From a virus (Duplodnaviria > Caudoviricetes): a DNA stretch of 64,000 nucleotides. Below the pieces are notes generated by a model, which saw nothing but the letters and a program-made list of their open reading frames with translations, did not search any database and was not told where the DNA came from. The position numbers were made by a program, and so were the translations under genes. Of this stretch, positions 2,477-36,265 are shown in pieces. Where the stretch lies: positions 1 to 64,000 of the IMG/VR virus record IMGVR_UViG_2855946969_000005; one strand, given 5' to 3'. Position 1 is the first letter of the stretch, and each line of letters begins with the position of its first letter.

Positions 2477-3754
2477 TCAGAGCATGGACAGGTAGAAGGC
2501 CGGGGGGCGCAGCGCCTCGATCATCGCGGCGACGGCGGCGGGGTCGGTGAACAGTCCGGTCCGGGCGGCGGCAGACTCGCTCTCGCTCGCGAAGGCGGAG
2601 CGCCAGCCGGAGGCCTGCCGGATCATGAAGGCGCCGCGCCCGGTCTGGTCCGAGACGCCGATCAGGAAGCCGACCGGCGGGCTGCGGTAGACGTAGCCGC
2701 CACCGGTAGCACCCTGCGCGATCTGCCCTGAGAGGCCCGCCCACGCCCCTGTGGCGCCGATCGGGATCAGGTAGGTGTCGCCCGGAGCCGGGCTCGCGGG
2801 CGGGGCCGTCACCGTCGCGGATTTGACCGCGAGAAAGTACGGGACGAGCGGGCCGGTGATGTCGTTTCCGGTCGCGGGTCCAGACCCGCCGCCCGTACCC
2901 GGGGGCGGGTTGAGCAACTGGAACTGCGTCCCATCGTAGAACAGGATGGTGCCGTACCCGACCATGAGGTCGTTGGCCGAGAGCGGCGTGCCGGACCCTC
3001 GGACAATCGGTTTCAGCCCCAGCCCGGCCATGTTGACCTGGGCCGGGCCGGTGTTGTTGTTGTTCGGCTTGACGACGACGATGAGCCCGGCAGAGTAACT
3101 GGCGACGGCAGGGGTCGGGTTCAGCGTCAGGGCGTTCGGTGTGGTCGAGAGATCGACACCGTAGTGCAGAAGGCTGTTCTGCAGAGGCCCGGCTTGTGCA
3201 GGCGAGAACCCGGTCAGAAGCTGCGCGATGCCGTTGTTGTCGAAGGTGAACAGGTAGATCCCGTTCGCCTTGACGGCGCCCACCTCCAACTGGTCCCCGG
3301 TCGGCCGGATCACCGCGGCGGGCGCGAGCCCGTTGATGATGATGGTCGTGTTGCCGGTGTTGGCCGCCGCGACGCGCACGAGGACGGTCAGGCCCTCGGT
3401 GTAGGCGGCCACGCCCGGAACCGCGATCTGGATCTGATTGAGTGTCGTTGAGGCATCGACCGAGTAGTGCAGAACCTCGGAGCCGAGCGACTGCTGAAGC
3501 GCGGCGACGAAGGCGCTCTCAAAGGCCGCGACATTGCCATCGTCGCGGACATCAAGACCCGAGTAGTCGGCCGTGAACTGGCCCAGCATCGCGGCGGCGA
3601 ACGAACTCTGTCGCCAGACCGTGTTGAGGTGGTCGGGCTGCGCGATCCCGTTCTGGAAGCCCTGCTGGCGCGCCGGGAGGTTCTTGTAGTCGTCGGGGTC
3701 GAGCACGTTGGCGCCCACCCCGGTCCCGAAGGGCAAGAGTTCGTTTGCGGCCAT
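2477..3754 (-). CDS. tail fibre protein with C-terminal DUF2793-like region
   Basis: N-terminus MAANELLPFGTGVGANV...GFQNGIA..LNTVWRQSS, two internal repeated domains, and APPASPAPGDTYLI..GATGAWAG. Confidence 0.8.
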   Translation of the reverse strand: MAANELLPFGTGVGANVLDPDDYKNLPARQQGFQNGIAQPDHLNTVWRQSSFAAAMLGQFTADYSGLDVRDDGNVAAFESAFVAALQQSLGSEVLHYSVDASTTLNQIQIAVPGVAAYTEGLTVLVRVAAANTGNTTIIINGLAPAAVIRPTGDQLEVGAVKANGIYLFTFDNNGIAQLLTGFSPAQAGPLQNSLLHYGVDLSTTPNALTLNPTPAVASYSAGLIVVVKPNNNNTGPAQVNMAGLGLKPIVRGSGTPLSANDLMVGYGTILFYDGTQFQLLNPPPGTGGGSGPATGNDITGPLVPYFLAVKSATVTAPPASPAPGDTYLIPIGATGAWAGLSGQIAQGATGGGYVYRSPPVGFLIGVSDQTGRGAFMIRQASGWRSAFASESESAAARTGLFTDPAAVAAMIEALRPPAFYLSML

Positions 3755-3786
3755 GCGGGCCTCGCATCAGCGGGAGGGGAGGGGGT

Positions 3787-4476
3787 TCAGTAGCCGCGCG
3801 CGACGAGGTCGGCGGGCGCGGCACCGAACGCACCGCGTCCGAAGCCGCCGATGAAGGCGTTGTCGACGCCGAACCCGAACAGCGGCGCCCGATCGACGGT
3901 CGTCACGAGCGTGCGCCCGCGGACCGTCACCGGACGCGCCGGCAGATAATCCTCGGCGAGCAGCATGAGCTTGTGCAGCGGCGGGATCTCACCGGAGACC
4001 CCGAGCAGGACCGCGCCTTCGCCCGCATCGGCATGGACGACGACGCGTGTGTTCGGGCTCGCGAAGAAGGCGTCGTAAACCTCGGCCGCGCCGGACACGG
4101 TGCCGTCCCAGCGGTTGAGCACCGCCTTGGCGCGCAGGAGGTCGCGATAGGTGTCGTCCGTCAGGCGGGTGATGCCGGTCTGCGGGTCGGTGGCTACGTA
4201 CCAGAGACCGCGCCCGAAGCCGCGCGCCGCGTCACCGAACGAGAACCAGTTGTTCGGCAGCGGGTAGGAGAGGAAGCGGGTGTAGCCCTCCCACGCACCG
4301 ACGGCATCGAGTTGGACACCCACCGCCTCGTCGATGTCGAAGGCGCGCGGCAGGTCGAGCACCGCGTTGCCCACGGCGACGGCGGGCGCGACCGAGAGCG
4401 CCACTGTGGCCTGGAAGCGCGGGCGCTGGCGGTGGTAGGCGGTCACCCGCGCCTGGAAGTCGGCGACCTGCTTCAC
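3787..4476 (-). CDS. baseplate wedge protein (DUF2612-like)
   Basis: FDIDEAVGVQLDAVG...LTDDTYRDLLRAKAVLNRWDGT. Confidence 0.8.
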   Translation of the reverse strand: MKQVADFQARVTAYHRQRPRFQATVALSVAPAVAVGNAVLDLPRAFDIDEAVGVQLDAVGAWEGYTRFLSYPLPNNWFSFGDAARGFGRGLWYVATDPQTGITRLTDDTYRDLLRAKAVLNRWDGTVSGAAEVYDAFFASPNTRVVVHADAGEGAVLLGVSGEIPPLHKLMLLAEDYLPARPVTVRGRTLVTTVDRAPLFGFGVDNAFIGGFGRGAFGAAPADLVARGY

Positions 4477-5651
4477 GGCACGCTCACGAAGGCGACGCCG
4501 TCAGGCGGCATCTCGGGTCGCTCATCGAAGCGGAAGGCAAGATCGGTCTCGCCCGGCTCCGCGCCATCGCGCGCCACGTCCACGCCGACCAAGCTGTAGG
4601 TCTCGGAGCCGGGCCCGTTGCCGAGCCGGGCCGGGACGTAGGCCCCGCCGCGCTCGAGCTGCCCGCCGATGCCCACGCTCTCGGTGAAGGTGGCGAGGGC
4701 AGCCCGGATGTCGGCCTTCACGTCGTCGGTGAAGCCGCGCTTCGCCCGCAGGCGCACCTGGTAGGTCGCGGGCACGATGGTCGGGCGGGTGAACGTGATC
4801 GTCTGGGCGATGCCGAAGGGGTCGATGTAGGATGCCCTGGTGTTCCCGATGGGAGGCACGCCGGGTGGCGCCTTGCGCCCGATCACGCTCGCGATCGCGC
4901 CCGCGTCGCCGCCCTCGATCACCAGCGCGTAAGAGCGGGGGGGCAGACCGTTCTGATCCACCGCGAGCGTCGGGTTGATGTAGCCGCGCGCGTGGATAAC
5001 GCCGGGGAGGTTGCCGATCTCGGCGATCATCCCGCCGACCACCGTGGCAGCCCCCGCCATCGTGGAGGCGGCCTGCCGCCGCCGGAGTGCCGGGTCGCGC
5101 TCGATCGGCGCGCCCGGCACGGCCGCGCGCGGGTTCGACACCGACTGCCAGCCCGGCACGGGCGTCTCGATCACCGAGAGCGCACCGGGATCAGCCGCGA
5201 CCGCCCCGGGCTCGGAGCAGGTCGCCGTAGCCGTGGTCTCGCCGGAGAACGGGATCTCGACCAGGGCGGGCAGCGTCCAGACCGTACCGTCCGCATCGGC
5301 GATCTGACCGTCCTCGATCTGCGTGCCGGCCTGGCCGATGATTCGCACATCTGCGGTCGAGGCGGTCGCGATCTTGCGCCGAAGCCCGTTGAGCTTCACC
5401 GAGCGGGACAGCCCGACGCCCTGCGCCGTCGCGGGCGAGAAGGCGTTGTAGACCGCCACCATCGCGCCGTTGGCCTGATGCAGCGCGTCGGCTTGGAGGC
5501 GGATCCACTGGCCGTCCTGGGTGTCCTCGTCCAGAACGATGTCCTGCCCGTAGATGCCCCGGTAGCCGTCCGCATAGTAGGCGAGGCAGTCCTCGAAAGG
5601 CGGGCGGTGGATGCCCGTCTCGTCGATGGTGCAGACGGGCGGGCTGGCCAT
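4473..5651 (-). CDS. baseplate J/gp47 family protein
   Basis: Start MASPPVCTIDETGIH at 5651. Motifs PATAQGVGL, GLRRK, ERDPALRRR. Confidence 0.85.
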   Translation of the reverse strand: MASPPVCTIDETGIHRPPFEDCLAYYADGYRGIYGQDIVLDEDTQDGQWIRLQADALHQANGAMVAVYNAFSPATAQGVGLSRSVKLNGLRRKIATASTADVRIIGQAGTQIEDGQIADADGTVWTLPALVEIPFSGETTATATCSEPGAVAADPGALSVIETPVPGWQSVSNPRAAVPGAPIERDPALRRRQAASTMAGAATVVGGMIAEIGNLPGVIHARGYINPTLAVDQNGLPPRSYALVIEGGDAGAIASVIGRKAPPGVPPIGNTRASYIDPFGIAQTITFTRPTIVPATYQVRLRAKRGFTDDVKADIRAALATFTESVGIGGQLERGGAYVPARLGNGPGSETYSLVGVDVARDGAEPGETDLAFRFDERPEMPPDGVAFVSVP

Positions 5652-7592: not shown

Positions 7593-8522
7593 TCAGGCCC
7601 GGCCCAGGCGCGCCTGCGCCGTCGTAGAAGCGCCCAGCGCGTTGCAGACGAACTCGCTGTAGAACTCGTTGCCCCGGGTATCCCCGACGTGATCGACGGC
7701 GAGCACCTTGTAGATCCCGTCCGCGGCGATGGTGCCGAGATTGGGTTCGATGTTTCGGACCTCACCACTGACGCTTAGATCGAACGCTGCGCGGTCAATC
7801 GACTTTTCGTCGATATGTACCCGGCCGTGGGCTTGGATGCGCGGGTTCAGGAGCGACCTGCCGATGATGCCGTTGTCGGTCTGCGTGGGGCGGCCGATCA
7901 TGCCGGTGTCGGAGTTCAGCACCACCGCATCCCCCGGCAGTGTCCCGCCCGCGGGCACCACGTTGAGACGCCCATCACGGATGCACCACGTGCATCCGAG
8001 CGACTGGGCGAGGCGGCGCATCGTATCGCGTGCCATGCCGAAGTGGACTTGGGCTCGCGGATCTTTCGTCTGGGCCAGGATCGGAGGGGCATACCCTGGG
8101 GATATGCCGTACTGCTTCATGGCTTTGACGACGAGGTCGTAGAGATCCTTGCCGGTCGAGTTGGCCGGCAACGCCCCCTTGATCGTAGCCTGTTGGTAGG
8201 CCTTCAGGCCGTCTTCTGCGAACAGGTCGACGTAAGTGTCCGTTGGGCTTTCGCGGCCACTATTGCGGGATCTGACATCACCCGTGAAGATCAGGCCGTA
8301 CAGACCCTCGTACCCAAGCTCTAAGCTCACGCGCCCCGAGCGCTTCGGCAAGGCCTGAACTGTGGCCTCGGAGAGGTTTGAGATGCGGATAACCGCGGCT
8401 CTCGGCGATTGAACGAACGGATCCCTGATCCTGAAGCGCACCCGGAACTCGGACAGATCCAAAGTGCCGCCTGAGCCGCCGCTCGCAGTGACCCGGCAAA
8501 CACGGCGGTACAGGCGCGTCAT
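7593..8522 (-). CDS. baseplate hub protein, copy 1
   Basis: I.NLSE, LELGYEG, IF.GDV, WCIRDG, TGMIGRP, GIYKV..V.HVGDTRG.EFYS. Confidence 0.8.
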   Translation of the reverse strand: MTRLYRRVCRVTASGGSGGTLDLSEFRVRFRIRDPFVQSPRAAVIRISNLSEATVQALPKRSGRVSLELGYEGLYGLIFTGDVRSRNSGRESPTDTYVDLFAEDGLKAYQQATIKGALPANSTGKDLYDLVVKAMKQYGISPGYAPPILAQTKDPRAQVHFGMARDTMRRLAQSLGCTWCIRDGRLNVVPAGGTLPGDAVVLNSDTGMIGRPTQTDNGIIGRSLLNPRIQAHGRVHIDEKSIDRAAFDLSVSGEVRNIEPNLGTIAADGIYKVLAVDHVGDTRGNEFYSEFVCNALGASTTAQARLGRA

Positions 8523-12890: not shown

Positions 12891-13322
12891 GTGGGAATGA
12901 TAAACCGTGTCTCGAACCGGCGGGGGGTGCTTGCCGGGCTGGCGGCAGCACCCTTCGGAGGCGCCGTAGCCGCTGCTGTGGCGGCAGATCCTGATGCGAC
13001 CCTACTCGCGCTCGGAACCCGTTTTGAGGCCGCCTGGGCGCACGAGCGGAAAACGGACGCCCGATTCAAAGGCGACCTCTCGGCCGAGGCAGTCGCAGCC
13101 TGTGAGGCGGCGTACGCGGCCACGGGGCTGATCGCGGAAGAGATCGAGCCGATCCGCGCAAACACGCTCGCAGGCCTCTACGTTCGCGCCCGCGTCCTAC
13201 TCTGGTGCATGGGAAGCGATCCACTGATTGCTGAGCAGTTCTCAGACAGCCCGCCCGCTACCGACGTTCGAATGATCGTCAGCCTTGCGCAGGACGTGCT
13301 CCGGATCGGCGCCGCCCCGTGA
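12891..13322 (+). CDS. twin-arginine-like hypothetical protein
   Basis: NRRGVLAGLAAA...PDATLLALG...ANTLAGLYVRAR. Confidence 0.7.
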   Translation: MGMINRVSNRRGVLAGLAAAPFGGAVAAAVAADPDATLLALGTRFEAAWAHERKTDARFKGDLSAEAVAACEAAYAATGLIAEEIEPIRANTLAGLYVRARVLLWCMGSDPLIAEQFSDSPPATDVRMIVSLAQDVLRIGAAP

Positions 13323-13753
13323 CCTACGAAGAACTGATCGCCTCGCCGTTATGGGCGAGGCAGCGCCAGGAGGCGCTCGCCCGCGACGGCTTCCGCTGCC
13401 GGGGCTGCGACACGACCGAGGATCTTGAGGTCCACCACCGCCGCTACGGCGACCCGCTGGGGACCGAGACCGTCGACGATCTGACCACCCTCTGCCGGGA
13501 ATGCCACCATGCGATCACGGAAGTCATCCGCCGCCGCCGCTCCGCCGGACGCGCCCACATCGTCCCAGAAGCCGCACGCCGCATCCCAGGCGCTGCCGCA
13601 GGCTTCAGCGCCGAAAGGCTACCAGCGCCTCAACTTCAGGCTCACCGGCGTGTCCGGCCTGGTCATGCACAACGGCCAACTGGCGAACCCGCTGAACCCC
13701 TTCGCGAAGGCGCTGAAGGCGGTCTCGGGCAAGCGAGCGAAGACGGACGCTGA
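13319..13753 (+). CDS. HNH endonuclease
   Basis: RDGFRCRGC....LEVHHRRY...DLTTLCRECH. The C-terminal half overlaps the next gene in another frame. Confidence 0.8.
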   Translation: MTYEELIASPLWARQRQEALARDGFRCRGCDTTEDLEVHHRRYGDPLGTETVDDLTTLCRECHHAITEVIRRRRSAGRAHIVPEAARRIPGAAAGFSAERLPAPQLQAHRRVRPGHAQRPTGEPAEPLREGAEGGLGQASEDGR

Positions 13754-14183
13754 CTTCGAGGAGATGGCCCGGATCGAGTTCCTGGGCGGCCTCTACGTCG
13801 GCGAGGACGGCCCTTGCATCCCGGGCGAGTTGATCGAGGCCACGCTGATTTCGGCGGCCAAGAAGGTGAAGCGCGGCCCGCAGGCAAAGGCCGGCATCCT
13901 CTCGGATGGCAACCACCCGATCCTCTACGATGGCCCGCGCAACCCGGACGCCCTCTGGGCCGAGGAGCGCTTCCGGCTCGTGGCCGGCGTGAAGGTCGGG
14001 CAGGCTCGCATCATGCGGACGCGGCCGATCTTTCGCGAATGGTCGGCCGACGTGTTCGTGGATTTCATGCCCGACGCGCTCAACGCTTCCGAGGTGGAGC
14101 AGATGATGCGCACGGCGGGTTCGGTGATCGGCCTGGGCGATTGGCGCCCCAGGTTCGGACGGTTCACAGCCGAGAGGCTGTGA
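13509..14183 (+). CDS. stand-alone Cas7/RAMP-like RNA-binding protein (Vipr-like effector)
   Basis: First strand FRLTGVSGLVMHN, CIPGE.IEATL..AA, RTRPIFREW, and C-terminal Gly-rich loop AGSVIGLGDWRPRFGRF. GGY-NN arrays begin immediately downstream. Confidence 0.75.
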   Translation: MRSRKSSAAAAPPDAPTSSQKPHAASQALPQASAPKGYQRLNFRLTGVSGLVMHNGQLANPLNPFAKALKAVSGKRAKTDADFEEMARIEFLGGLYVGEDGPCIPGELIEATLISAAKKVKRGPQAKAGILSDGNHPILYDGPRNPDALWAEERFRLVAGVKVGQARIMRTRPIFREWSADVFVDFMPDALNASEVEQMMRTAGSVIGLGDWRPRFGRFTAERL

Positions 14184-14185
14184 AG

Positions 14186-14278
14186 GGCCTGTCGGGGCTG
14201 GTCACGGCTGGGTGCGCCATGGTCAGGCGAGGCGGGGCAAGGCAGGGGTGAAGGGCGGCTTCGGCCGTCCTTCCGCCT
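14186..14278 (+). ncRNA. putative guide RNA 1: 13 x 5-nt GGY-NN units plus terminal hairpin
   Basis: GGCCT GTCGG GGCTG GTCAC GGCTG GGTGC GCCAT GGTCA GGCGA GGCGG GGCAA GGCAG GGGTG, then hairpin GAAGGGCGGC-TTCG-GCCGTCCTTC and CGCCT. Confidence 0.8.
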
Positions 14279-14338
14279 GATGACTGTGAACTCCCATCGC
14301 GGATGAGCGCGATCGGCGTCCACAGCGTGGACGAGCCA

Positions 14339-14440
14339 GGCGGGCTAAGGCACGGCATGGCAAGCTGAGGCAAGACCGGGTTCGGCTTGGCAAGGCGAGG
14401 CAAGGGTGAAGGGGTCGGCTCGCGCCGGCCCCTTCCGCCT
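14339..14440 (+). ncRNA. putative guide RNA 2: 14 x 5-nt GGY-NN units plus terminal hairpin
   Basis: GGCGG GCTAA GGCAC GGCAT GGCAA GCTGA GGCAA GACCG GGTTC GGCTT GGCAA GGCGA GGCAA GGGTG, then hairpin GAAGGGGTCGGC-TCGC-GCCGGCCCCTTC and CGCCT. Two small hairpins precede it (14296-14313, 14317-14333). Confidence 0.8.
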
Positions 14441-14479
14441 TCCACCAGTCGGTAAGGAGAACGAGATCAGTATGCCCGC

Positions 14480-14896
14480 ATGGGCATTCTGCGCGGCCTC
14501 CTCTTGCTCGTCATCATCTTCGTGTTCGTGGCCATGCGCCGCGATCCGCCGGAACCTGATCCCGAGCCGGACCGCAACGTCACGGTCATCGAGAAGAACG
14601 TGCAGCCTCCGGCCGGGCGGCCCCCGCGTGCTGAGCCAAAGCCTCAGCCGCAGATATCGCCCACACCACAGGGCGCCGAGCGGCCCAAGCTTCAGTGCAT
14701 GATCACGCGAGCCGGCAATGGCTCGTACTCGTCCTATGATGGGGGCAAATCGGCGCTGGCCATCATGATGGCATGTCCGAACGACTATGCTGCGTGGGTC
14801 GCCTATTGTGAGACGAGCGGCCCGAACGAAGACGGGAGGTGCGATGTCGCTTTGGCTACCATGGTGCAGGTGATGCTGAAGCAAGCGGGGCGCTGA
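14480..14896 (+). CDS. membrane-anchored periplasmic hypothetical protein
   Basis: N-terminal TM segment, Pro-rich linker, 4-Cys domain. Confidence 0.65.
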   Translation: MGILRGLLLLVIIFVFVAMRRDPPEPDPEPDRNVTVIEKNVQPPAGRPPRAEPKPQPQISPTPQGAERPKLQCMITRAGNGSYSSYDGGKSALAIMMACPNDYAAWVAYCETSGPNEDGRCDVALATMVQVMLKQAGR

Positions 14897-14958
14897 CCCG
14901 CGCAGACTTCTCCTCCGGCTATTACCCTTCGTTGACGCTCGTGCGTTAAGGGCAGGCT

Positions 14959-15327
14959 ATGCGCGCTGCCCTCACCCTTATCTCCGTGCTGAGCCTAACC
15001 GTCAGCGCGCTAGCGGCTGAGCGAATCCCATCTTTTCCGAAGCGGACCAGTTACGACGACGCCCGAAATAGCCTGCGTGCGCTCGGCTGGGCGCCAGTCG
15101 TGCAAACGGGCCAGCGCTGTGGGACGGATGGTTGTTACGAGCGGTGCGCGCCAGGATTTGAAGCTCGGTGCCTCACCTACCCCGAGACGGCCATCTGCCG
15201 CGGGACAGGCTTGGCCGCCTGCGAGTTCCTGTGGAAGCGAAACGATGTGCTGATCGAGATCCGGACAATCGGTGAGGATGATCCGCCTACTGTCGCCGGG
15301 GTCAGTTGCAAGGTTAATTGTAGATAG
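14959..15327 (+). CDS. exported Cys-rich protein, candidate muramidase inhibitor
   Basis: Signal peptide, Y..AR..L...GW.P...C..YPE...C.GTG...C.F.W. Convergent with tape measure copy 2. Confidence 0.7.
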   Translation: MRAALTLISVLSLTVSALAAERIPSFPKRTSYDDARNSLRALGWAPVVQTGQRCGTDGCYERCAPGFEARCLTYPETAICRGTGLAACEFLWKRNDVLIEIRTIGEDDPPTVAGVSCKVNCR

Positions 15328-15358
15328 CCCCTGAGGCGTTGGCGCCCCAGGGTTCATC

Positions 15359-18280
15359 TCACGCATACCTGTTGTTGAAGTTCCCGATCAGATCGGACCG
15401 CTGGCGCGATGCTGCGCCTGTGATGTGGCTCGCAGCCTCCTTCGGGTCGGAGACGCCGGTCACGGTTGCGGTCGTTGTGCGCTGATCGTTGAACGTCCGC
15501 TGATCGTAGACCGTTTTTCCGGCTTTGGAATCACCCGCTCCCAGCGGGCTCGTCTGGAAGGCGCCGCCCGCTTTCCACTGTTCGGCCGTCAGGCCGCGCG
15601 GGTTGATCTTGCCGATGCTGCCCTCTGCCTTGCCGATCCACATTTCTGGATAAGCCACAAGCGTTTGCTCGACCTTTTCGGCAGTTTGAAGGGCGACTTT
15701 TCTCAGCTTCTCAACGGCAGCATTGACCTCGGGTGCTAGGCCAGAGCCCTGGCCAGCCGTGTTACCGGCGCCGAACGAGTCGTTGAACCTCTGTTCAAAT
15801 GCAGAGCTGCCTTTGGGCTTGTCTGGGTCCTGTACTGCGCTTTGCATCCGCTCCAACATGGTCTGCGGATCAATCAGTTTGCCGTCCTTGTCCCGCATCT
15901 CAAGGTGTAGATGTGGGCCAGTTGAACGACTGTCGGTCGGGCCAACAGCGCCGATCCGCCCCCCTCCTTTCACAGCGTCACCCTGCTTCACCGAAGGGAC
16001 AACATGTCTATAAGTAGACGACGAACCGTCTTCGTGCTCGATGGTAATGTCGCCATGCTCATTGAGCTTGACCACCTTCCCATCTTTCAGTGCTTTCACC
16101 CCGGTCCCTGGCGTTGCGGCGAGATCGACTCCATTGTGATGACGGACATCGCCGTGGATGGGGTGTTGGCGCGGTCCAAACTTCGACGTGATGCGTCCGC
16201 CACCTTCCAAGACGTTGGCGCCGTCGCCACCAGCCTTTCCATTCGACCCGGTTTGGCCCCCTGATCGATCATCCCGCTCAAGGGCTCGTCGCGCAGCCTC
16301 ACGCTCCTTCGGGTGCGTCTTGAACCCCTCCCAAGCACCTAGGCCCTGCTGTCGCGCGATCCAATGCGCGATCTGATCTTGTGTCTTTTCATCGAACTTC
16401 GTTGTGTTCGGGTCAAGGCCAAGCGCTTTGATGGCTTCCTTGAGCGTAGAACCAACGATTTGGTATCGACCGAGCGCCGACGAATTCGGATTCCCAGGCT
16501 GTTGGCGCATGAACTTGCCGAGGTCTAGGATCTCAGCAAGTGTCTTGTCCGTAAGTGTTTGCTCTTTACCGCCAGGGAGATATTTACCGTAGCCTAGAGA
16601 GGTGTTGTAACCATTCCCGGGCCGGCCGGCAGTACCTTCGGCTCGCGCAATGTTATCAAGGAGGCCATCTGGCGCGGGACCTAAGCCCAACTTCCCCTTC
16701 ACCCAGCCGAGACCACGGCTGACGATGTTGGGGCCGCGCTCGGCACCCTGCTGAGTCTTGCCGTAGATGCGGTCGGCGATGCCCGGGTCGAGCGTGCGGA
16801 CAACGCTCTCGTGCCAGGACCGCGAGCCGGCCCCCGCGTCGAGGATACCGGCATCGTTGGCCACCTTGGCCGCGACGCCGATCCCGAGAAGGCCGAGCAG
16901 CCACGTGGGCGGACGCATGGCGCCGAGCGTCCCGAGCAGGCCCACGACCTTGCCTAGGGGTGCCAGCACCTTGGCCGCCAGCACGACCGCGAAGGCCGCG
17001 AAGGCCGCGGTGAGACCGTCCTGGCCGGTGATCGCCTTGGCGACCCGGTCGAAGCCCTCCCAGAGGTCCTTCAGGGCGTTCAGCGTGGACTGGATCGCGG
17101 GCCACCACCGATCCCACGGGATCAGGGTGTCCTTCGCGCCCTCGCGCCACTTCTGGTAGTCGTCGTAGAGGACGACGATTGCGCCCGCGAGCGCGAGCAG
17201 GGCCGCGACGGGCCCGCTCTTGAGCAGGAGGAGCGCGGTCGCCACCGCTGCGATCGAGATCAGGAACTGCTTCGTCGCCGGGTCGAGGTCGTTAAATTTG
17301 CCGATCAGGTCGACGACGCGGGTGGCCAGGCGCAGCAGGGTCTCACCGATGCCGATGACCGCCTTGGCGATTCCGTCCGCGTTGGCGAGCAGGTAGTCCG
17401 TCAGGCGCCCGATCTGCGCGCCGAACTTCGTCGTCAGCGCGGCGCCGATGCGGGTGAACAGGATGTCGACGGCGGCCCACATGCGCCGCCACATATTCAT
17501 GAAGGCGGCCGAGTCCTTGGCCGCGCGGTCGGGATCGACGCCGGCCTTGCCGAGCATCTCCCGGTATTCGAGGACCGCCTTCTTGAACGAGCCGTCCTTC
17601 AGCGCGATCAGCGTGCGCTCGTCGATCCCGAGCGCGTCCGCGTAGGCCTTGGCCTGGAAGTGCGGCATCTTGGCGAACGCGTCGCCGAGCTCCATCGTGA
17701 CCTCGGTGAGATCGCGGAGCTTGCCGTTCTGGCGCGTGGCGACGCCGAGGTTCTTGAGCATCCCCTCGTAGCCGGGGGAGGAGCGCATGTTCTGCGCCAG
17801 CGCCTCGAGCGAGCCCGCCGCGCCCTCGGCCGTCGAGCCGAGCTGCGAGGCGGCGTAGCTGAACGCCTTGAGGTTTCCGACCTTGGAGTTGGTGCGCTCG
17901 GAGGCGTAGTAGAGCTTCTCCAGCCCGTCCGAGATCTTCACGACCGCGGCAGTGGAGGCGAGGGCCGCGGCCTCCAGGGCGACCGCCATCGCGGCCACGC
18001 CCTTCACGAAGGCGGTCGTGCGCTCCTTGGCCGCCTTCGCGGCAGCGGACTCGGCGGCCTCCCGCTCCTTGGCCCGCTTCAGCGCATCCTTGGCCGCGCG
18101 GACATCCGCGTCGGCCTTGATCTTGTTCGCTTCCTGCGCCGACTTCGCGCCCGCGAGCCGGGCCGCCTCGGCCCGCTTCTCGGCCTCGATGACGGCCTTC
18201 TCGTAGGCCTTGACCGAGCCCTCCGCCTTGGACTGGGAGGCGGTGTCAACGCGCCAGCCCAGGAGGTAGACCGCGAAGCG
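15359..18280 (-). CDS. tape measure protein copy 2 with lambda-lysozyme/GH104-like and M23 peptidase domains; canonical start codon missing
   Basis: Paralogue of 33314-36265. LDNIARAEGT...YN...SSALGRYQIV..TL...F....QD, plus M23 motifs HNGVD and TGPHLHLE. The frame is open to 18280, but the first GTG is at 18007. Confidence 0.8.
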   Translation of the reverse strand, partial: RFAVYLLGWRVDTASQSKAEGSVKAYEKAVIEAEKRAEAARLAGAKSAQEANKIKADADVRAAKDALKRAKEREAAESAAAKAAKERTTAFVKGVAAMAVALEAAALASTAAVVKISDGLEKLYYASERTNSKVGNLKAFSYAASQLGSTAEGAAGSLEALAQNMRSSPGYEGMLKNLGVATRQNGKLRDLTEVTMELGDAFAKMPHFQAKAYADALGIDERTLIALKDGSFKKAVLEYREMLGKAGVDPDRAAKDSAAFMNMWRRMWAAVDILFTRIGAALTTKFGAQIGRLTDYLLANADGIAKAVIGIGETLLRLATRVVDLIGKFNDLDPATKQFLISIAAVATALLLLKSGPVAALLALAGAIVVLYDDYQKWREGAKDTLIPWDRWWPAIQSTLNALKDLWEGFDRVAKAITGQDGLTAAFAAFAVVLAAKVLAPLGKVVGLLGTLGAMRPPTWLLGLLGIGVAAKVANDAGILDAGAGSRSWHESVVRTLDPGIADRIYGKTQQGAERGPNIVSRGLGWVKGKLGLGPAPDGLLDNIARAEGTAGRPGNGYNTSLGYGKYLPGGKEQTLTDKTLAEILDLGKFMRQQPGNPNSSALGRYQIVGSTLKEAIKALGLDPNTTKFDEKTQDQIAHWIARQQGLGAWEGFKTHPKEREAARRALERDDRSGGQTGSNGKAGGDGANVLEGGGRITSKFGPRQHPIHGDVRHHNGVDLAATPGTGVKALKDGKVVKLNEHGDITIEHEDGSSSTYRHVVPSVKQGDAVKGGGRIGAVGPTDSRSTGPHLHLEMRDKDGKLIDPQTMLERMQSAVQDPDKPKGSSAFEQRFNDSFGAGNTAGQGSGLAPEVNAAVEKLRKVALQTAEKVEQTLVAYPEMWIGKAEGSIGKINPRGLTAEQWKAGGAFQTSPLGAGDSKAGKTVYDQRTFNDQRTTTATVTGVSDPKEAASHITGAASRQRSDLIGNFNNRYA

Positions 18281-18282: not shown

Positions 18283-19209
18283 CTAGGCCCGCCCCAGCTT
18301 CGTCTGGGCTGTCGTAGAGGCCCCAAGCGCGTTGCAGACGAACTCAGAATACCAAGCCTCGCCTCTGGTGTCTCCGATGTGATTTACAGACGATACTTTG
18401 TAGGTTCCGTCAGTCGAGATCGTGCCGAGATTAGGCTCAGACTTGTTAACTTCGCCTTTTACTGAGAGATCGAACGGGGATAGATCAATTGACCTTTCGT
18501 CAATTACAACCTTGTGTCCGGCCTGGATCCTGGCATTAAGGAGGGATCTGCCAACGATGCCCTGCTCAGTTTGCAACGGTCTTCCTATGAGACCGCTATT
18601 AGAATTCAATACAACAGGCCCGCCGGGAAGCGCCTCGCCAGCGGGCAGTACGTTCAGTCTGCCGTCCCGGATCAGCCATGTGCAGCCGAGGGACTGCGCG
18701 AGCCGTCTCATCGTATCGCGGGCCATGCCAAAATGAACCTGCGCCCTGGGATCCTTGGTCTGGGCAAGAATCTTGGGGATGTTCCCGGCAGTGATGCCAT
18801 AGGGCTTCATCGCTTCAAGAACGATGTCTAGTATGTCTTTACCTGTTGAATTCGCCGGCAACGACTTTGACACTGAAGCGTACTGATACGGCTTGAGGCC
18901 GTCCTGTGCGAATATGTCAACGTATGTGTCTGTCGGGCTTTCGCGACCAATATTGCGTGCCCGAACCTCGCCCGAAAAAATTTGCGAGTAGAGTCCGGCA
19001 TACCCGGCGATTAGGGCAATTCTTCCGCCTCGTTTTGGTATGGACCGCGCCGTACTATCGGAGAGGTTCGTTATTCGGATGGCTGCAGCTCGCGGTGTCT
19101 GAACCACCGGGTCGGTGATCCGGAAGCGCACCCGGAACTCGGACAGGTCGAGCGTGCCGCCACCGCTGCCGACATGAAGCTGGCAGATCCTGCCGTACAG
19201 TTGCGTCAT
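18283..19209 (-). CDS. baseplate hub protein, copy 2
   Basis: Full-length paralogue of 7593-8522 (for example GGTLDLSEFRVRFRI, QVHFGMARDTMRRLAQSLGCTW). Lower GC than copy 1. Confidence 0.85.
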   Translation of the reverse strand: MTQLYGRICQLHVGSGGGTLDLSEFRVRFRITDPVVQTPRAAAIRITNLSDSTARSIPKRGGRIALIAGYAGLYSQIFSGEVRARNIGRESPTDTYVDIFAQDGLKPYQYASVSKSLPANSTGKDILDIVLEAMKPYGITAGNIPKILAQTKDPRAQVHFGMARDTMRRLAQSLGCTWLIRDGRLNVLPAGEALPGGPVVLNSNSGLIGRPLQTEQGIVGRSLLNARIQAGHKVVIDERSIDLSPFDLSVKGEVNKSEPNLGTISTDGTYKVSSVNHIGDTRGEAWYSEFVCNALGASTTAQTKLGRA

Positions 19210-19725: not shown

Positions 19726-19881
19726 AGATGCGCAAAGCAAAAGGCCCCGCGTCATCGCAGGGCCTCTGATCCAAGGTCGGTTGTGCGCGAAATTCTCGCT
19801 GGGGACAAGCGGTTTTGCTCGCCGCGTCACCTAGTCGTCGCAGGATCGGTTATGGCCCAAGTTCCAGCGCCGGTCTAGGGG
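19726..19881 (-). promoter_or_regulatory. conserved non-coding element, copy 2
   Basis: Collinear with 9612-9764. Confidence 0.65.
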
Positions 19882-20060
19882 GAGCCAAGATCGCAGCGCC
19901 CCCTCGGCCCGGCAAGTACGGCGCCGATGGAGTCCAGGGGACGGACCGCATCAGGCTATATCTCAAATCGCAGTCGCACCGTAGCATCAGAGGCGCATTA
20001 GGTCGTATCAATCGAGCCGCCGTCAATCAGTGCGGCTCATTAAGAGGTCCGGGGGAAGCG

Positions 20061-21256
20061 GTGGCCAACAAGAAAAGGCAGCACTTTATCCCCAAATATG
20101 TACTTAGGAATTTTGCGGTTGACGGCCACAAAGCGCCCAAGGACAGAAAGCAGATTGCCCTATACAATCTCAATAAGGGTTTTTCTGTGCGCGCTGCGTC
20201 ACTTAAAGAGCAATGCTATCGAGATTATATGTACGGGAAAGATCTCGTTCTTGAGGACCATCTCGGGATAATGGAGGGCGTATTCGGGGAGATCACAACA
20301 AACGCAATAAGCAGGAATGCCCTTAGCCGAAGCTTTGATGACATAGCTGCCATTGCATTTATGGTCGCGCTACAGAAAGGCCGAACTGCTGCTTCAGAAG
20401 ACGATGCCAACTCCATGGTCGACAAGATGATGAAGATGGTAGCCTACGGGCGATTTCCTCGGGAGCAGCTTGAGCAGTTCAAAATAGGACTTACAAACGC
20501 CGCTGGCATCAACATCACGGCGGCAATGCGCGCTAGCCCTGTCATATTCGATCTAAAGCAGAAGCTTATACTTAACAAAACCAAGACACCATTCGTTTTG
20601 TCCGACAATCCCGTTTGCATGACAAACTTTTTTGCCGCAGAAAATTCGGCGAGGAGTTTGGCCTCGGCCTGGCTGCTGCGGGCCTGCAAATCTATATGCC
20701 AGTCTCGTCGTCGCATGCTCTGATTTTGTATGACGGAAATGTTTACTCATGCGACTCAGGAAATGCAATATCAATCAGCAATGTCGACGAGATATGGGCC
20801 TTAAACAGGATATCCTATTTCAATTCGAGGGAGAACATATATTTCAATGGGAATCTGTCGGAGACAGATATCTCGCGCTTCCGACAAATGGGCAAGCCGG
20901 CCAACGGCGAAGTCTTTGAGCGTCTGGAGGAAGTCGGCCCAGGGACTTACAGGCTCACCCAAAAAGACGAATATGAGGGGCCGTCAGAAGGGGTGACATC
21001 TGAGATCATCAGGTTCGGCAAACAACACCTCCCAGAAGATATCCGACTGCGCGCGTTGCGCCTGCGCAACAAACCGCAATATCACTATAATGGAACGCTG
21101 GCTGGCCCCCAGCGGGATCCGGCGTGGCTCGAAATCGTTGATGACTTTTCTGGACTTTTAGAGAAAAAGTTTGTCAAACTAACGCGGATACTGGACTATG
21201 CAAAAAATCATGCGTTGCGGGATCGCGTGGGATCCTGGATCAACAGGGTCGATTGA
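20061..21256 (+). pseudogene. DUF4238-like protein split by a frameshift (or sequencing error) in a T6 tract
   Basis: KRQHFIPKYVLRNF, FVLSDNPV and LQIYMPVS motifs lie in two frames joined at TTTTTT 20628-20633. Low GC. Confidence 0.75.
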
Positions 21257-29009: not shown

Positions 29010-29017
29010 GGGAGGGG

Positions 29018-33313: not shown

Positions 33314-36265
33314 CTAAGCATATCGGTTCTGGAACTGTCCGATCATATTGGAACGTTGTCGATTCTCAGCGCCAATTACCTGATCTGCTGCGGTCTTCGG
33401 CTCAGAGACGCCATTGACGGTCGTCGTGCGAGTTCCCTCATTGAATACTCGATTATCAATGATGGTCTTGCCTGCAGATGTTCCGCCGGCACCTAAAGGT
33501 GCAGTCTCGAACGCCGGCCGCCGCCGCCAATTGTCGACGGCATCGAGACGTGAAGGACCCTTGCCGAGAGACGTTTCAGCTTGGTCCATCCAAGCTCGCG
33601 GATAGGCGATCAGGGTTTGCTCAACCTTGCCGGCCGTGTCGAGCGCTACACGCTTCAGTCGATCAACGGCAGCATCGACCTCAGGCGAGGCCGCACTCTG
33701 CTTCCGCTCCAGGGAGGACTGAGGATCGACTAAGTTGCCATCCTTATCCCTCAACTCGAGATGAAGGTGCGGGCCTGTGGACCTACCGTCAGTGGGCCCA
33801 ATTTTTCCAATTTGTCCGCCACCCTTTACCGCGTCTCCATTTCGGACGCTCGGCACAATGTGACGATATGTCGAAGAAGACCCGTCCGGGTGCCGTACGG
33901 TTACATCGCCTTCGCGGTTAATCGACACGATGCCATCGCGCATCGCCTGCACATCTGTCCCCTCGGGGGCTGCCAAGTCGATGCCGTTGTGATGCTTCAT
34001 CTCGCCTGTTTTGGGATGACGGCGCATCCCGAACCGGGAGGAAAGCCGGCCCTGGCCGCCTAGAGGATGATGCCCTCTCTCAACGGCGCCGCCCTCCTCC
34101 GGCTTGCCCTTGACGATTGGGAGCCAGCCTCGTGCGTGCGCGCCCCGGTTGCCCTCCTCGCCGACCCCATACCGCTCAAACTCGCGGATTCCCTCCATCG
34201 CGTGGTCAAGGTCGCGCGGGTTGCGGAGGATCTTGCCAGCTTTCTCGGTCCGCCGGCTGTCGTAGAGCGGGTCGCCGGGCTTGGCATCGAGTTCTGCGAT
34301 GGCGCCCTTCGTCTGCCAGCGTGCGTCGTAGGGGTCGCCACCCTGGTCCTCAATCCACTTCTTGATCTTGGGCCAGCGGTTCTTGTCCCATTGGAACAGG
34401 CCGGTGTGGCCGCCCGCCACCTCGTTGCGCGCACGAGGGTTGAAGGTGCTTTCGGTCTGTGCAGAGCCGAGCATGGCGGCGATCGCCTCATCGGAGTACC
34501 CTGCGGCGCTCAACTCCTCCATCATAGCCCGCGCATTCCCATTCTGCGCGAGCTTACCGATTCGGCTTGTACCGCCCCCAGCCGGATCCCCACCGAGTCC
34601 GACCTTCTCCTTCACCCAACCGAGACCTCGGCTGACGATGTTGGGCCCGCGCGCAGCGTCCTGCGAAGTCTGCCCGTAGATCCGATCTGCGATGCCCGGA
34701 TCAAGCGTGCGGAGAATGCTCTCGTGCCATGACCGGGAGCCGGCGCCGCCGTCGAGGATCCCATTGTCGTTTGCCACCTTCGCCGCGACGCCGACGCCCA
34801 GGAGCGCGAGCATCCACCCCGGGGGACGCATGCTCCCGAGGGAGCCAAGGAGGCCGACGACCTTCCCGAGCGGGGCCAAAACCTTCGCCGTGAGCACCAC
34901 CGCGAACGCTGCGAACGCCACGGTCAAGCCGTCCTGCCCGGTCAACGCCTTCGCCGCGCGATCGAAACCTTCCCAGAGTGACTTGAGCGCCGCTAGTAAA
35001 TTCTCAACGGCCGGGGCCCATTTGTCCCAATCGACAAGATTGTCTGTCGAGCCCTCGCGCCACTTCTTATAATCGTCGTAGAGGACGACGATGGCCGCCG
35101 AGAGCGCCAACAGAGCTGCGACAGGCCCGCTCTTGAGGAAAAGCAGTGCCCCCGCAATCGCTGCCATTTGCAGAACGAAGGATCGCGTACCGGGATCGAG
35201 GCGCGTAAATGCCTCCACCAAATCCACAACACGCTTCGCGAGCCGAAGGAGCGTTTCCCCAATGTTGATTACGGATTTCGTAATCTGATCGGCGTTGTCG
35301 TGTAGGTACTTGGTGAATCGTTCGATCTGCGCAGAGAACTTGTCGAATACCGCGCCACCGATCCGGATTTTCAGGCCGTCGATAGCCGCGAACATGCGAC
35401 GCATCGCATTCTCGAACACGACCGCGCCAGCCGCAGCCTTGTCCGGATCGACGCCCATCTTGGCGAGACTGTCGTTGTATTCCTTGGTGAGCTTATCTAC
35501 TTCGTTGCTGCGAAGCATGCGAACGAGATCTTCATGCAGACCCATCGCATTGGCGAAGGAATTGGCCTGATGCCGCGGCTGCTCTGTAAAAGCACGCTTC
35601 AGTTCTTCGATAAGCTTTACAGTGCCGATGAGGTCGCCATTGGCATCCCGCGTCTGGACCCCAAGGTTTTTCAGCATCGTCTCATAGCCAGGGGAGTCGC
35701 GCATGTTCTTGGCGAGCGCTTCGACTGACTGAATTGCAGTCTCAGACGATACGCCCAACTGCTCCGCCGCATAGGCGAACGCCTTGAGATCTTTGACGCT
35801 GCTGTTCGTGCGCTTGCTCGTATAGTACGCACGCTCCAAGCCGGACGCGATATTGTCCACAGCCGCCGTAATACCGACCGCGGCGGCCTGGATAGCCGCC
35901 ACCATCGCCAAGGAGCCCTTGACGAAAGCCGCAGTGCGGTCTTCATGGGATTGCGCAGCGCGCTTGTTGGCTGTGGTCTCGGTCTCCCGAGCCTCCGCGC
36001 TCGCCTTCGCGGCTTTCGCTTCGGCCGCCTGCTGGCGCTTCAGGTCGGCGATGTGGGCGGCGGCCCCCTTCGTCCTGACGCCGCGCTCGCGGTTGGTCTC
36101 GATGATCCGCTTCGCCGCGCCCTGCACGGTCGCCTTCGTGGCGCGCGACTCTGCCACCTCGACAGCGGACGCCACCTCGTCCGGCGCCGCCTTCGCGCGC
36201 CGGACGCTGGCCTCATCGACCTTGAAGCCAAGGGCGTAAAAGAAGTCCTGAAGTATGTTGTTCAC
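33314..36265 (-). CDS. tape measure protein copy 1 with phage tail lysozyme and M23 peptidase domains
   Basis: Follows the tail chaperones. GYS.EAIAAMLG....ES.FNP.A....G..GLFQW...R, HNGID and TGPHLHLE. Confidence 0.85.
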   Translation of the reverse strand: MNNILQDFFYALGFKVDEASVRRAKAAPDEVASAVEVAESRATKATVQGAAKRIIETNRERGVRTKGAAAHIADLKRQQAAEAKAAKASAEARETETTANKRAAQSHEDRTAAFVKGSLAMVAAIQAAAVGITAAVDNIASGLERAYYTSKRTNSSVKDLKAFAYAAEQLGVSSETAIQSVEALAKNMRDSPGYETMLKNLGVQTRDANGDLIGTVKLIEELKRAFTEQPRHQANSFANAMGLHEDLVRMLRSNEVDKLTKEYNDSLAKMGVDPDKAAAGAVVFENAMRRMFAAIDGLKIRIGGAVFDKFSAQIERFTKYLHDNADQITKSVINIGETLLRLAKRVVDLVEAFTRLDPGTRSFVLQMAAIAGALLFLKSGPVAALLALSAAIVVLYDDYKKWREGSTDNLVDWDKWAPAVENLLAALKSLWEGFDRAAKALTGQDGLTVAFAAFAVVLTAKVLAPLGKVVGLLGSLGSMRPPGWMLALLGVGVAAKVANDNGILDGGAGSRSWHESILRTLDPGIADRIYGQTSQDAARGPNIVSRGLGWVKEKVGLGGDPAGGGTSRIGKLAQNGNARAMMEELSAAGYSDEAIAAMLGSAQTESTFNPRARNEVAGGHTGLFQWDKNRWPKIKKWIEDQGGDPYDARWQTKGAIAELDAKPGDPLYDSRRTEKAGKILRNPRDLDHAMEGIREFERYGVGEEGNRGAHARGWLPIVKGKPEEGGAVERGHHPLGGQGRLSSRFGMRRHPKTGEMKHHNGIDLAAPEGTDVQAMRDGIVSINREGDVTVRHPDGSSSTYRHIVPSVRNGDAVKGGGQIGKIGPTDGRSTGPHLHLELRDKDGNLVDPQSSLERKQSAASPEVDAAVDRLKRVALDTAGKVEQTLIAYPRAWMDQAETSLGKGPSRLDAVDNWRRRPAFETAPLGAGGTSAGKTIIDNRVFNEGTRTTTVNGVSEPKTAADQVIGAENRQRSNMIGQFQNRYA

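What the first reader, a model, noticed from the sequence alone, without database searches (positions are those of the whole stretch)
14339..14408. Array 2 decodes to the 3' end of the tape-measure gene
The NN series is GG AA AC AT AA GA AA CG TC TT AA GA AA, spelling G-K-T-I-(N/K)-D-N-R-S-F-N-(D/E)-(N/K). Tape measure 1 (33472 to 33434) reads GGC AAG ACC ATC ATT GAT AAT CGA GTA TTC AAT GAG GGA (GKTIIDNRVFNEG): 10/13 dinucleotides, 21/26 nt. Tape measure 2 (15520 to 15482) reads GGA AAA ACG GTC TAC GAT CAG CGG ACG TTC AAC GAT CAG (GKTVYDQRTFNDQ): 8/13 dinucleotides, 21/26 nt. Two independent arrays thus decode, in codon register and in sense orientation, to tail genes flanking the island, and both genes are duplicated here. 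The copy adjacent to the locus has more broken dinucleotides, consistent with self-avoidance.
Basis: partly seen in the sequence, partly recalled or inferred. Interest (0 to 1): 0.93.

Follow-up and report, generated by a model that had tools for sequence, protein, structure and literature searches.

The report
VIPR guide RNA aimed at tape-measure gene
The five-base repeat array is a guide RNA of a VIPR system, a phage RNA-guided DNA silencer first described in 2026 preprints, and its variable bases do spell, with every third base skipped, a conserved motif near the end of the two tape-measure genes in the same provirus.

Summary
Array 2 (14339-14403) is 13 pentamers of a GGY-like triplet plus NN. 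Read as NNx, the NN series matches 21 of 26 bases at 33472-33435(-) and at 15520-15483(-). These are in-frame, homologous sites in the two tape-measure genes. The next best hit in the whole 99,285-bp record is 16 of 26. One of 3000 composition-matched shuffled guides reaches 21. None of 96 guides from other loci gives p<=0.01 on this record.

The "gapped code" is already described. Three 2026 bioRxiv preprints describe VIPR: a Vipr RAMP protein plus vrRNAs of GGY/NN repeats that read DNA by a 1-nt skip rule, with the skipped base mostly on the wobble position. The upstream ORF matches PDB 36pp "SUSP1 Vipr protein" (E 8e-34). This scan had already found VIPR on other DNA: 24 findings in at least 24 genomes. 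So this is a new member of a known kind.

The match (0.81) sits just above the preprints' 0.80 cut-off. No better allele was found in any collection searched. Array 1's match to the baseplate hub is weaker: 18 of 24, p about 0.06.

The parts
13319..13753 (+). HNH endonuclease ORF, a candidate VIPR accessory (vap) gene. Its 3' part overlaps the vipr ORF in another frame.
   Evidence: Pfam HNH E 3.1e-5. PHROG HNH families down to E 1.1e-11. tblastn finds it directly upstream of, and overlapping, the vipr homolog in 8 of 39 loci searched (L001/L008 are the same place, L009/L010 near-duplicates, plus L029, L012, L003, L004). The preprint's Fig. S21 legend names HNH-domain Vap proteins.
13509..14183 (+). 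vipr gene (RAMP / Cas7-like protein, P0001). Homology to other Viprs starts at about residue 40 (about nt 13626), so the true start is probably downstream of 13509.
   Evidence: PDB 36pp_D 'SUSP1 Vipr protein' E 8.3e-34 over residues 40-222. 38% identity, E 1e-43, to SUSP1 ORF 28474-29061(-). phrog_4652 E 2.6e-52. AF2 model pLDDT 90.6. Foldseek top hits are Csm3/Cas7, type VII Cas7, Cmr4 and Cas6.
14186..14245 (+). vrRNA1 repeat tract: 12 GGY-like/NN pentamers, starting 2 nt after the vipr stop.
14246..14279 (+). vrRNA1 3' tail: GGGTG junction plus a 10-bp GC-rich hairpin with a tetraloop.
   Evidence: RNA fold. The same GGGTG/GGGTA junction occurs in the SUSP1 arrays.
14339..14403 (+). vrRNA2 repeat tract: 13 pentamers. 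This is the finding. Guide NN = GG AA AC AT AA GA AA CG TC TT AA GA AA.
14404..14445 (+). vrRNA2 3' tail: GGGTG junction, an 11-bp hairpin (about 14409-14434), then CCGCC.
   Evidence: The hairpin is kept through sequence changes between vrRNA1, vrRNA2 and L001.
33435..33472 (-). Best guide-2 match in tape measure 1 (GKTIIDNRVFNEG), 21 of 26.
15483..15520 (-). Equal guide-2 match in tape measure 2 (GKTVYDQRTFNDQ), 21 of 26, 1.1 kb from the array.
33314..36265 (-). Tape-measure gene 1 (983 aa; tail lysozyme plus M23 peptidase). It is the last gene of the myovirus tail operon before the island.
   Evidence: phrog_2276 E 1.3e-51, Pfam Phage_lysozyme2 and Peptidase_M23. Sheath and chaperone lie upstream.
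15359..18007 (-). Tape-measure gene 2 (882 aa), inside the island. BLASTP gives 65% identity to copy 1 over 408 aa.
   Evidence: phrog_2276 E 1.1e-62. Paralogy.
18656..18690 (-). Best guide-1 match in baseplate hub 2 (LGCTWLIRDGRL), 18 of 24.
   Evidence: Hub annotation phrog_196 E 3.1e-59.
7966..8000 (-). Guide-1 match in baseplate hub 1 (LGCTWCIRDGRL), 17 of 24.
   Evidence: phrog_196 E 8e-57.

Best explanation
Array 2 is the second of two guide RNAs (vrRNAs) of a VIPR system carried in a low-GC island of a myovirus-type provirus.

Shown for the model systems in the preprints, inferred here by homology: Vipr protomers coat the transcript, one per pentamer. They bury each GGY and expose the NN dinucleotides. 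The filament then reads double-stranded DNA two bases on, one base off, forming a gapped R-loop that blocks transcription. Here the conserved HNH partner might add cleavage; that is untested.

Guide 2 is written for a conserved C-terminal motif of this phage group's tape-measure protein, G-K-T-(I/V)-x-D-x-R-x-F-N-(D/E). It matches all 14 read bases at the 7 codons that are invariant between the two resident copies. It matches 7 of 12 read bases at the 6 variable codons in each copy.

The most likely reading is that the cognate target is a third, unsampled allele of this tape-measure family, in a rival phage or satellite. The two resident copies would then be near-cognate relatives, each with five mismatches. 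Those mismatches include the tail-proximal unit, where filament assembly on DNA begins according to the structural preprint. Whether the resident copies are bound at all is open.
For: Membership in VIPR:
- P0001 matches PDB 36pp_D 'SUSP1 Vipr protein' at E 8.3e-34 and the SUSP1 ORF at 38% identity, E 1e-43.
- The residues the structural preprint names for GGY, target and non-target-strand contacts (H17, K33, R39, E71, K82, R138, D177, W178, R179) align with identical residues H54, K70, R76, E107, K118, R172, D211, W212, R213 (my reading of the alignments).
- The fold is RAMP-like.
- GGY/NN arrays accompany the homolog in 31 of 32 loci examined, in Gordonia phage Trine, in wV8 and in SUSP1.
- Only two arrays exist in the 99-kb record, both directly after vipr.
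- Thirteen units lies within the published 9-16 range, and there is a conserved structured tail.

The rule: the 1-nt skip, wobble-aligned targets and the >=80% NN-match criterion come from the preprints.

The target:
- 21 of 26 (0.808) at two homologous in-frame tape-measure sites, against a next best of 16.
- 1 of 3000 shuffled guides reaches 21. 0 of 300 Markov surrogates exceed 19.
- 0 of 96 heterologous natural guides give p<=0.01 on this record.
- The pattern of perfect match at family-invariant codons and half match at variable codons is read directly.
- Guide 1 points, more weakly, at the baseplate hub, the other tail gene duplicated here.
Against: - The score is only just above the preprints' 0.80 cut-off.
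- The authors report no own-contig hit >=0.80 for the P. fulva-clade, type III and type V guides, the sets for which they describe this control. In my own survey of 68 arrays from other loci, own-locus hits were at chance: 5 of 68 at p<=0.05. An own-contig target would therefore be atypical.
- No better allele was found. There was no exact match in IMG/VR, no exact match of units 1-12 in JGI metagenomes, and none with <=3 mismatches in 146 genomes of the genus of G001.
- Windows of GC-rich guides from two other arrays also reach 21 of 26 on this GC-rich record (5 of 192 windows), so the raw score alone is not decisive. Only the composition-matched null is.
- Expression of the array, RNP formation and any effect on tail genes are untested.
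- The preprints are not peer reviewed. Their figures and supplements were not visible to me.
Confidence: 0.72

Rival explanations
1. The array is a vrRNA, but the tape-measure match is chance. The real target lies in some unsampled mobile element unrelated to tape measures.
For: - 0.808 is barely over the cut-off.
- No perfect allele was found.
- Array 1's hub match is not significant at full length (p 0.056-0.33).
- GC-rich heterologous guide windows can reach 21 of 26 here.
Against: - The composition-matched nulls give 1 of 3000 and 0 of 300.
- All 14 read bases at family-invariant codons match in both paralogs.
- 0 of 96 heterologous full-length guides give p<=0.01.
- The second guide's best hits fall on the other duplicated tail gene.
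Confidence: 0.13
2. The island is a satellite-like element whose VIPR silences the host provirus's tape measure 1 (and hub 1). Its own copies are spared because more of their dinucleotides are broken.
For: - TMP1 keeps 10 intact dinucleotides against 8 in TMP2.
- The island carries its own tape measure and baseplate hub. The second preprint says SUSP1 satellites encode exactly these two structural proteins (passages seen).
- The island interrupts the tail operon between TMP1 and the baseplate genes.
Against: - By the published per-base score the two copies tie at 21 of 26.
- For guide 1 the island's own hub scores higher (18 against 17).
- No integrase and no flanking direct repeat of >=11 nt were found for the island.
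- Nothing in the text I read says that dinucleotide integrity matters more than base count.
Confidence: 0.1
3. Both resident tail genes are deliberate targets. The provirus uses VIPR to keep its own late tail genes (tape measure and hub, both copies) quiet in lysogeny or to time them.
For: Both guides have their best record-wide hits on resident tail genes, and both paralogs score alike.
Against: - The preprints describe VIPR as aimed at rivals and report no self-targeting for the guide sets they checked against their own contigs.
- Five mismatches to each copy would be odd for a dedicated self-regulator.
- A conserved HNH partner would make self-targeting risky.
Confidence: 0.04
4. The pentamers are only a periodic protein-binding or G-rich structural tract, in the manner of TRAP sites or G-quadruplexes, and their NN spacers carry no information.
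For: Before the literature was found this was the natural null. The GGY triplets are constant and the NN bases drift freely between loci.
Against: - The preprints report reprogramming of targets by changing only the NN bases, and structures of NN-DNA pairing.
- The protein here is a clear Vipr homolog with the contact residues kept.
Confidence: 0.01

Closest known systems
VIPR system of Escherichia phage SUSP1 (type II; Vipr + Vap1 + four vrRNAs). Sources: bioRxiv 10.64898/2026.04.26.720920, 10.64898/2026.04.26.720927 and 10.64898/2026.10.15.759431; PDB 36pp.
   Same: - Homologous Vipr protein (38% identity), with the named GGY-binding and DNA-contact residues kept.
- vrRNAs of GGY/NN pentamers placed next to vipr.
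- A GGGTG/GGGTA junction into a structured 3' tail.
- The best predicted target follows the 1-nt skip rule with the skipped base on the codon wobble position.
- The system is phage-borne.
   Different: - The partner gene is an HNH ORF upstream of and overlapping vipr, not a small downstream vap1.
- There are only two vrRNAs, both downstream.
- The tail is a simple GC hairpin; a pseudoknot was not tested.
- The host is Methylobacterium-like (closest homologs), and the element is a provirus rather than a lytic phage.
- The best hits are tail structural genes on the same contig, not a satellite recombinase.
Nuclease-associated VIPR types (types III-V in the first preprint; HNH-domain Vap shown in its Fig. 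S21 legend)
   Same: A conserved nuclease-type neighbour (HNH) and few vrRNAs per locus. The preprint mentions systems with a single vrRNA.
   Different: I could not assign a type number: the figures and supplements were not visible. [quoted passage not shown]
Class 1 CRISPR backbone subunits (Cas7/Csm3/Cmr4) on crRNA
   Same: RAMP fold. Foldseek top hits are Csm3 and type III-D, type VII and Cmr subunits, at E 7e-5 to 1e-3. One protomer binds per repeat unit, with periodic thumb-induced base flipping.
   Different: - Six-base periodicity with 5 paired and 1 flipped base, against 5-base guide units with 2 paired bases and a 3-base target period here.
- No CRISPR repeat-spacer array in the window: TRF lists no array with a 24-50 nt period and three or more copies. 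No second RAMP was found in the record.
- Other cas or adaptation genes were not searched for as such.
F5 satellites of SUSP1 (second functional preprint)
   Same: An element carrying just a tape-measure gene and a baseplate gene related to those of a co-resident myovirus, embedded in VIPR-mediated conflict.
   Different: Here the island also carries a complete VIPR, whereas F5 satellites carry solo vrRNAs only. No recombinase or att repeats were found, so satellite status is unproven.
TRAP (trp RNA-binding attenuation protein) binding sites. Recalled from memory, not from a call.
   Same: Triplets spaced about 5 nt apart, each bound by one subunit of an oligomer.
   Different: In TRAP sites the spacers carry no information and the protein fold is unrelated. 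This was rejected as a model once the Vipr homology was found.

Membership tests
VIPR (Viral Interference Programmable Repeat) system | A Vipr protein homologous to the characterised ones | tested here: met
   PDB 36pp_D 'SUSP1 Vipr protein' E 8.3e-34 over residues 40-222. BLASTP 38% identity, E 1e-43, to the SUSP1 ORF between its arrays.
VIPR (Viral Interference Programmable Repeat) system | RAMP architecture (RRM core, G-loop, thumb) and the residues that hold GGY | tested here: met
   AF2 pLDDT 90.6. The Foldseek PDB top hits shown are all CRISPR RAMPs (Csm3/Cas7, Cmr4, Cas6), 37 hits at E<=0.001. H54, R172, D211, W212 and R213 align with SUSP1 H17, R138, D177, W178 and R179 named (alignments). 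The thumb and G-loop were not inspected in 3D.
VIPR (Viral Interference Programmable Repeat) system | vrRNA tract of about 9-16 tandem GGY/NN (YNNGG) units with a conserved triplet and hypervariable NN | tested here: met
   13 units, 10 of them GGY. vrRNA1 has 12 units. The triplet is constant and the NN bases vary across 31 of 32 homologous loci and across genus relatives.
VIPR (Viral Interference Programmable Repeat) system | Invariable, structured 3' tail after the repeat tract | tested here: met
   A GGGTG junction and a 10-13-bp hairpin in vrRNA1, vrRNA2 and L001, kept through sequence changes. The same junction occurs in SUSP1. A pseudoknot was not tested.
VIPR (Viral Interference Programmable Repeat) system | Accessory vap gene beside vipr | tested here: inconclusive
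   The HNH ORF is conserved upstream of and overlapping vipr in 8 of 39 loci. HNH Vaps are mentioned in the preprint. I could not match it to a numbered vap because the supplements were closed.
VIPR (Viral Interference Programmable Repeat) system | A natural target that fits the 1-nt skip rule at >=80% NN match | tested here: met
   0.808 at two tape-measure sites, p about 3e-4. This is at the very edge of the criterion and lies on the system's own contig.
VIPR (Viral Interference Programmable Repeat) system | vrRNA expressed and bound by Vipr; sequence-specific DNA binding or silencing | not testable with these tools
   No RNA data. Needs small-RNA-seq, pull-down and reporter assays.
CRISPR-Cas | Repeat-spacer array (about 24-50 nt repeats) and cas operon | tested here: not met
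   TRF lists no such array in the window. Only the single RAMP gene was found in the record. cas operon genes were not searched for as such.
Phage satellite of the F5 kind (for the island 9.5-33.3 kb) | Recombinase and att repeats, tail-module genes only, no capsid or packaging genes | tested here: inconclusive
   Tape measure 2, hub 2 and a neck-like gene are present. No integrase hit among 20 island ORFs against PHROGs or among the 10 of them also run against Pfam; only an IS110-like transposase. No shared k-mer of >=11 nt between the island ends.

The most novel reading that the evidence does not exclude
The 24-kb low-GC island splitting the myovirus tail operon is a satellite-like hijacker (or its remnant). 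It carries its own tape measure and baseplate hub, and, unlike the described F5 satellites, a complete HNH-armed VIPR. Both guides of that VIPR are written against exactly those two tail genes. The 5-mismatch state of all four resident copies would then be the frozen trace of an arms race, in which helper and hijacker each escaped the guide by amino-acid changes at the variable codons. This would be VIPR used in competition over virion tail parts rather than over regulators or recombinases.
Probability: 0.2. Interest if true: 0.65.

Novelty: new member of a known kind. Interest (0 to 1): 0.4.

Why it matters
That supports the quality of the observation, but the kind is already described, so the value lies in the details.

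- This is an alphaproteobacterial, provirus-borne VIPR of an HNH-associated clade.
- Both of its guides point at tail-morphogenesis genes (tape-measure C-terminus and baseplate hub).
- Those genes are present twice in the same record, with one guide at the published target cut-off on its own contig. The preprint reports no own-contig hit at that cut-off for the guide sets it checked, and 68 arrays from other loci surveyed here show none above chance.

If the near-cognate sites are bound, this is a natural case for measuring mismatch tolerance and self versus non-self discrimination in VIPR. If they are spared, it marks the tape-measure C-terminal motif as a conflict hot spot and predicts a third allele in Methylobacterium-type phages or satellites.

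Tried and rejected
- Rfam: no family at gathering score in the window. Only chance-level hits at E<=10 around the arrays. No tRNA.
- Consensus promoter and terminator scan of 13300-15400: nothing found. The tails are GC hairpins without a U-tract.
- TRAP-like sites, CsrA-sponge and G-quadruplex readings were considered before the literature hit and dropped once the Vipr homology was found.
- Search for a better tape-measure allele, all negative:
  - exact full pattern in IMG/VR, 0 hits;
  - units 1-12 in JGI metagenomes, 0 hits;
  - <=3 mismatches in 146 genomes of the genus of G001, 0 hits.
- Search for relatives of the tape-measure C-terminus, to score their alleles. None was found in:
  - IMG/VR, with either copy or with their alignment;
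  - JGI metagenomes;
  - 401 genomes of the family of G001;
  - the 5.8-billion-protein set at lengths 540-1721 aa (shorter fragments were not searched).
  The absence of a perfect allele therefore says little.
- Own-locus targeting in other VIPR loci: 68 arrays, 5 at p<=0.05, 2 at p<=0.01, 2 with identity >=0.8. The two best (L009 at 0.67, L029 at 0.80) were inspected and were not convincing.
- L001's guide has two 17-of-20 hits in its genome. One lies 1.5 kb from a second vipr, but with the skip base on codon position 1. It is left as a note.
- Island boundaries: no direct repeats shared by the two ends.
- Sequencing runs: no RNA holder listed.
- Supplementary files and figures of the three preprints were not visible. 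They may hold the type assignment of HNH-associated systems, mismatch-tolerance data (figs. S12, S13) and lists of loci that could already include this one.
- Preprints, what I saw:
  - 720920: outline, Results, Methods sections 18, 20, 26, 27, and found passages.
  - 759431: outline, sections 6, 8, 17, and found passages.
  - 720927: outline, Results, Discussion, and found passages.

Full report
**What is there.** From 14339 the + strand reads 13 pentamers, each a near-constant triplet (GGC nine times, GGT once, GCT twice, GAC once) followed by two variable bases. The tract is followed by GGGTG and a GC-rich hairpin. A sister tract of 12 units starts 2 nt after the stop codon of the ORF 13509-14183 and ends in the same GGGTG-hairpin. 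A simple caller (at least 6 of 8 GGY at 5-nt spacing) finds these two tracts and nothing else on either strand of the whole 99,285-bp virus record to which the window belongs.

**The match.** I scored every position of both strands for identity to the 26 informative bases at a period of 3.
- The two tape-measure sites come first at 21 of 26. Everything else scores 16 or less, in the window and in the whole record.
- Both sites are in frame and in sense, and they are homologous positions of two paralogs that BLASTP finds 65% identical over 408 aa. They therefore count as one event.
- Nulls: 0 of 300 permutations of unit order reach 21. 1 of 3000 base shuffles of the guide reaches 21. 0 of 300 Markov surrogates of the record exceed 19.
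- Other periods (2, 4, 6) give at most 17.
- As a specificity control, 96 full-length natural guides from other loci were scanned against this record. None gave p<=0.01 and one gave p<=0.05.
- A cruder control with 13-unit windows of foreign guides did reach 21 of 26 in 5 of 192 windows. All five came from two very GC-rich arrays (17-19 G+C of 26), whereas guide 2 has 8 G+C. Raw score alone is therefore not decisive, but the composition-matched nulls are.

**What it is.** The upstream ORF (P0001) has no Pfam family. It belongs to phrog_4652 and has more than 1000 unnamed relatives.
- In 31 of 32 related loci from genomes, MAGs and IMG/VR, the gene is accompanied by one to eleven GGY/NN tracts. 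L001 and L008 are the same place, and the 2-kb contig L004 had none.
- The same holds in Gordonia phage Trine, coliphage wV8 and coliphage SUSP1.
- A full-text search for 'GGYNN' led to bioRxiv 10.64898/2026.04.26.720920 and 10.64898/2026.10.15.759431.
- These preprints describe VIPR. A Vipr RAMP protein polymerises on vrRNAs of 9-16 GGY/NN repeats capped by a structured tail. Each GGY is buried and the NN bases pair with double-stranded DNA while one target base is skipped. The skipped base mostly falls on the codon wobble position. Targets lie on either strand. The outcome is transcriptional silencing of rival phages, prophages and satellites. Accessory vap genes include HNH-domain proteins.
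- P0001 matches PDB 36pp_D, deposited as 'SUSP1 Vipr protein', at E 8.3e-34.
- An AlphaFold model (pLDDT 90.6) finds Csm3/Cas7 and other RAMPs as its best PDB matches.
- The HNH ORF that overlaps the start of vipr is conserved in that position in 8 of 39 loci searched, which are the closest relatives.

**Is the tape measure the target?** The preprints count a hit as a natural target at >=80% NN match, and 21 of 26 is 0.808.

In favour, beyond the nulls:
- At the seven codons whose residue is the same in both tape measures (G, K, T, D, R, F, N), the guide matches all 14 read bases in both genes.
- At the six variable codons it matches 7 of 12 in each gene, with different mismatches in each (read).
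- This pattern is what a guide written for a third allele of the same family would show.
- Between the two copies, the read positions are 18 of 26 identical and the skipped positions 3 of 13. This fits the published rationale for skipping the wobble base.

Against:
- The score is at the edge of the criterion.
- The authors saw no own-contig hits at that level for the guide sets they checked against their own contigs.
- My survey of 68 arrays from other loci found own-locus hits only at chance.
- No better allele exists in IMG/VR, JGI metagenomes or 146 genomes of the genus.
- That absence is weak evidence, because the tape-measure C-terminus has no relative anywhere I could search.

**Self-avoidance.** Both copies score 21 of 26. 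Copy 1 has 10 intact dinucleotides and copy 2 has 8, but the published scores count bases. For guide 1 the island's own hub scores higher than the other copy (18 against 17 of 24). I find no support for discrimination between the copies. The structural preprint reports that filament assembly on duplex DNA starts at the tail-proximal units and proceeds 3' to 5'. The last unit of guide 2 and the last two units of guide 1 mismatch all resident copies. By inference only, this argues that the resident sites are poor substrates.

**Context.**
- The record holds a myovirus-type provirus with sheath at 37522-39162, chaperone at 36480-36965 and tape measure 1 at 33314-36265.
- About 24 kb further on come the genes that follow the tape measure in SUSP1: two small genes, baseplate hub 1, wedge and fibres.
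- Between them lies a lower-GC island. It carries the HNH-vipr-vrRNA module, tape measure 2, hub 2, a neck-like gene, DUF4238, an IS110-like transposase, an antirepressor and a GIY-YIG/regulator gene.
- The second functional preprint says that satellites of SUSP1 carry just a tape-measure gene and a baseplate gene. The resemblance is suggestive, but I found no recombinase or att repeats.

**Verdict.** This scan has met VIPR before on other DNA, with 24 findings in at least 24 genomes. The locus is a new member. It has three uncommon features: an overlapping HNH partner, both guides pointing at tail genes, and a threshold-level hit on its own contig. Expression, binding and any effect on tail genes remain untested.

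Noticed in passing
window 13319-13753 / 13509-14183: The HNH ORF runs about 70 codons past its domain and overlaps the vipr ORF in another frame. The same overlap is kept in the related loci where tblastn finds the HNH ORF (for example L001: HNH 2799-3239, vipr match from 3001). It may reflect translational coupling, a shifted fusion or a mis-called start.
   Followed up: partly
window 9531-33313: A lower-GC island of about 24 kb interrupts the myovirus tail operon exactly between tape measure 1 and the genes that follow the tape measure in SUSP1. It holds second, diverged copies of tape measure and baseplate hub in the reverse of the usual order. No integrase was found among 20 island ORFs searched, and no end repeats.
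   Followed up: partly
G001:C2:134923-134951 (L038 1501-1529) and G001:C2:132794-133402 (L048): The Methylobacterium haplocladii genome has two vipr loci. The single guide of the first matches 17 of 20 at a site 1.5 kb from the second vipr, inside an 889-aa recombinase-like ORF. The skipped base there falls on codon position 1, not on the wobble position.
   Followed up: partly
L006 (Gordonia phage Trine, MH271318.1) 32131-32210 (-): The vrRNA-like tract lies inside the annotated N-terminus of gp40, directly after the vipr homolog gp41 in the replication module. The gp40 start is probably mis-annotated.
   Followed up: no
L035 (phage wV8, EU877232.1) 3750-3807 and 5143-5200: The record's 'DR_4' direct repeats are the ends and tails of two vrRNAs flanking genes 95 (vipr homolog) and 94.
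   Followed up: no
L013 125-1610; L005 2867-3006 and 4207-4291: Some loci carry very large vrRNA sets. L013 has five tracts upstream and six downstream of vipr. L005 has a 26-unit tract directly upstream of the gene.
   Followed up: no
window 19815-21256: A DUF4238 gene appears split over two overlapping ORFs (Pfam E 1.6e-24 and 8e-6). It may be frameshifted.
   Followed up: no
window 14480-14896 and 14959-15327: Two small ORFs between the vrRNAs and tape measure 2 have no Pfam or PHROG family. The first starts with a hydrophobic stretch.
   Followed up: no
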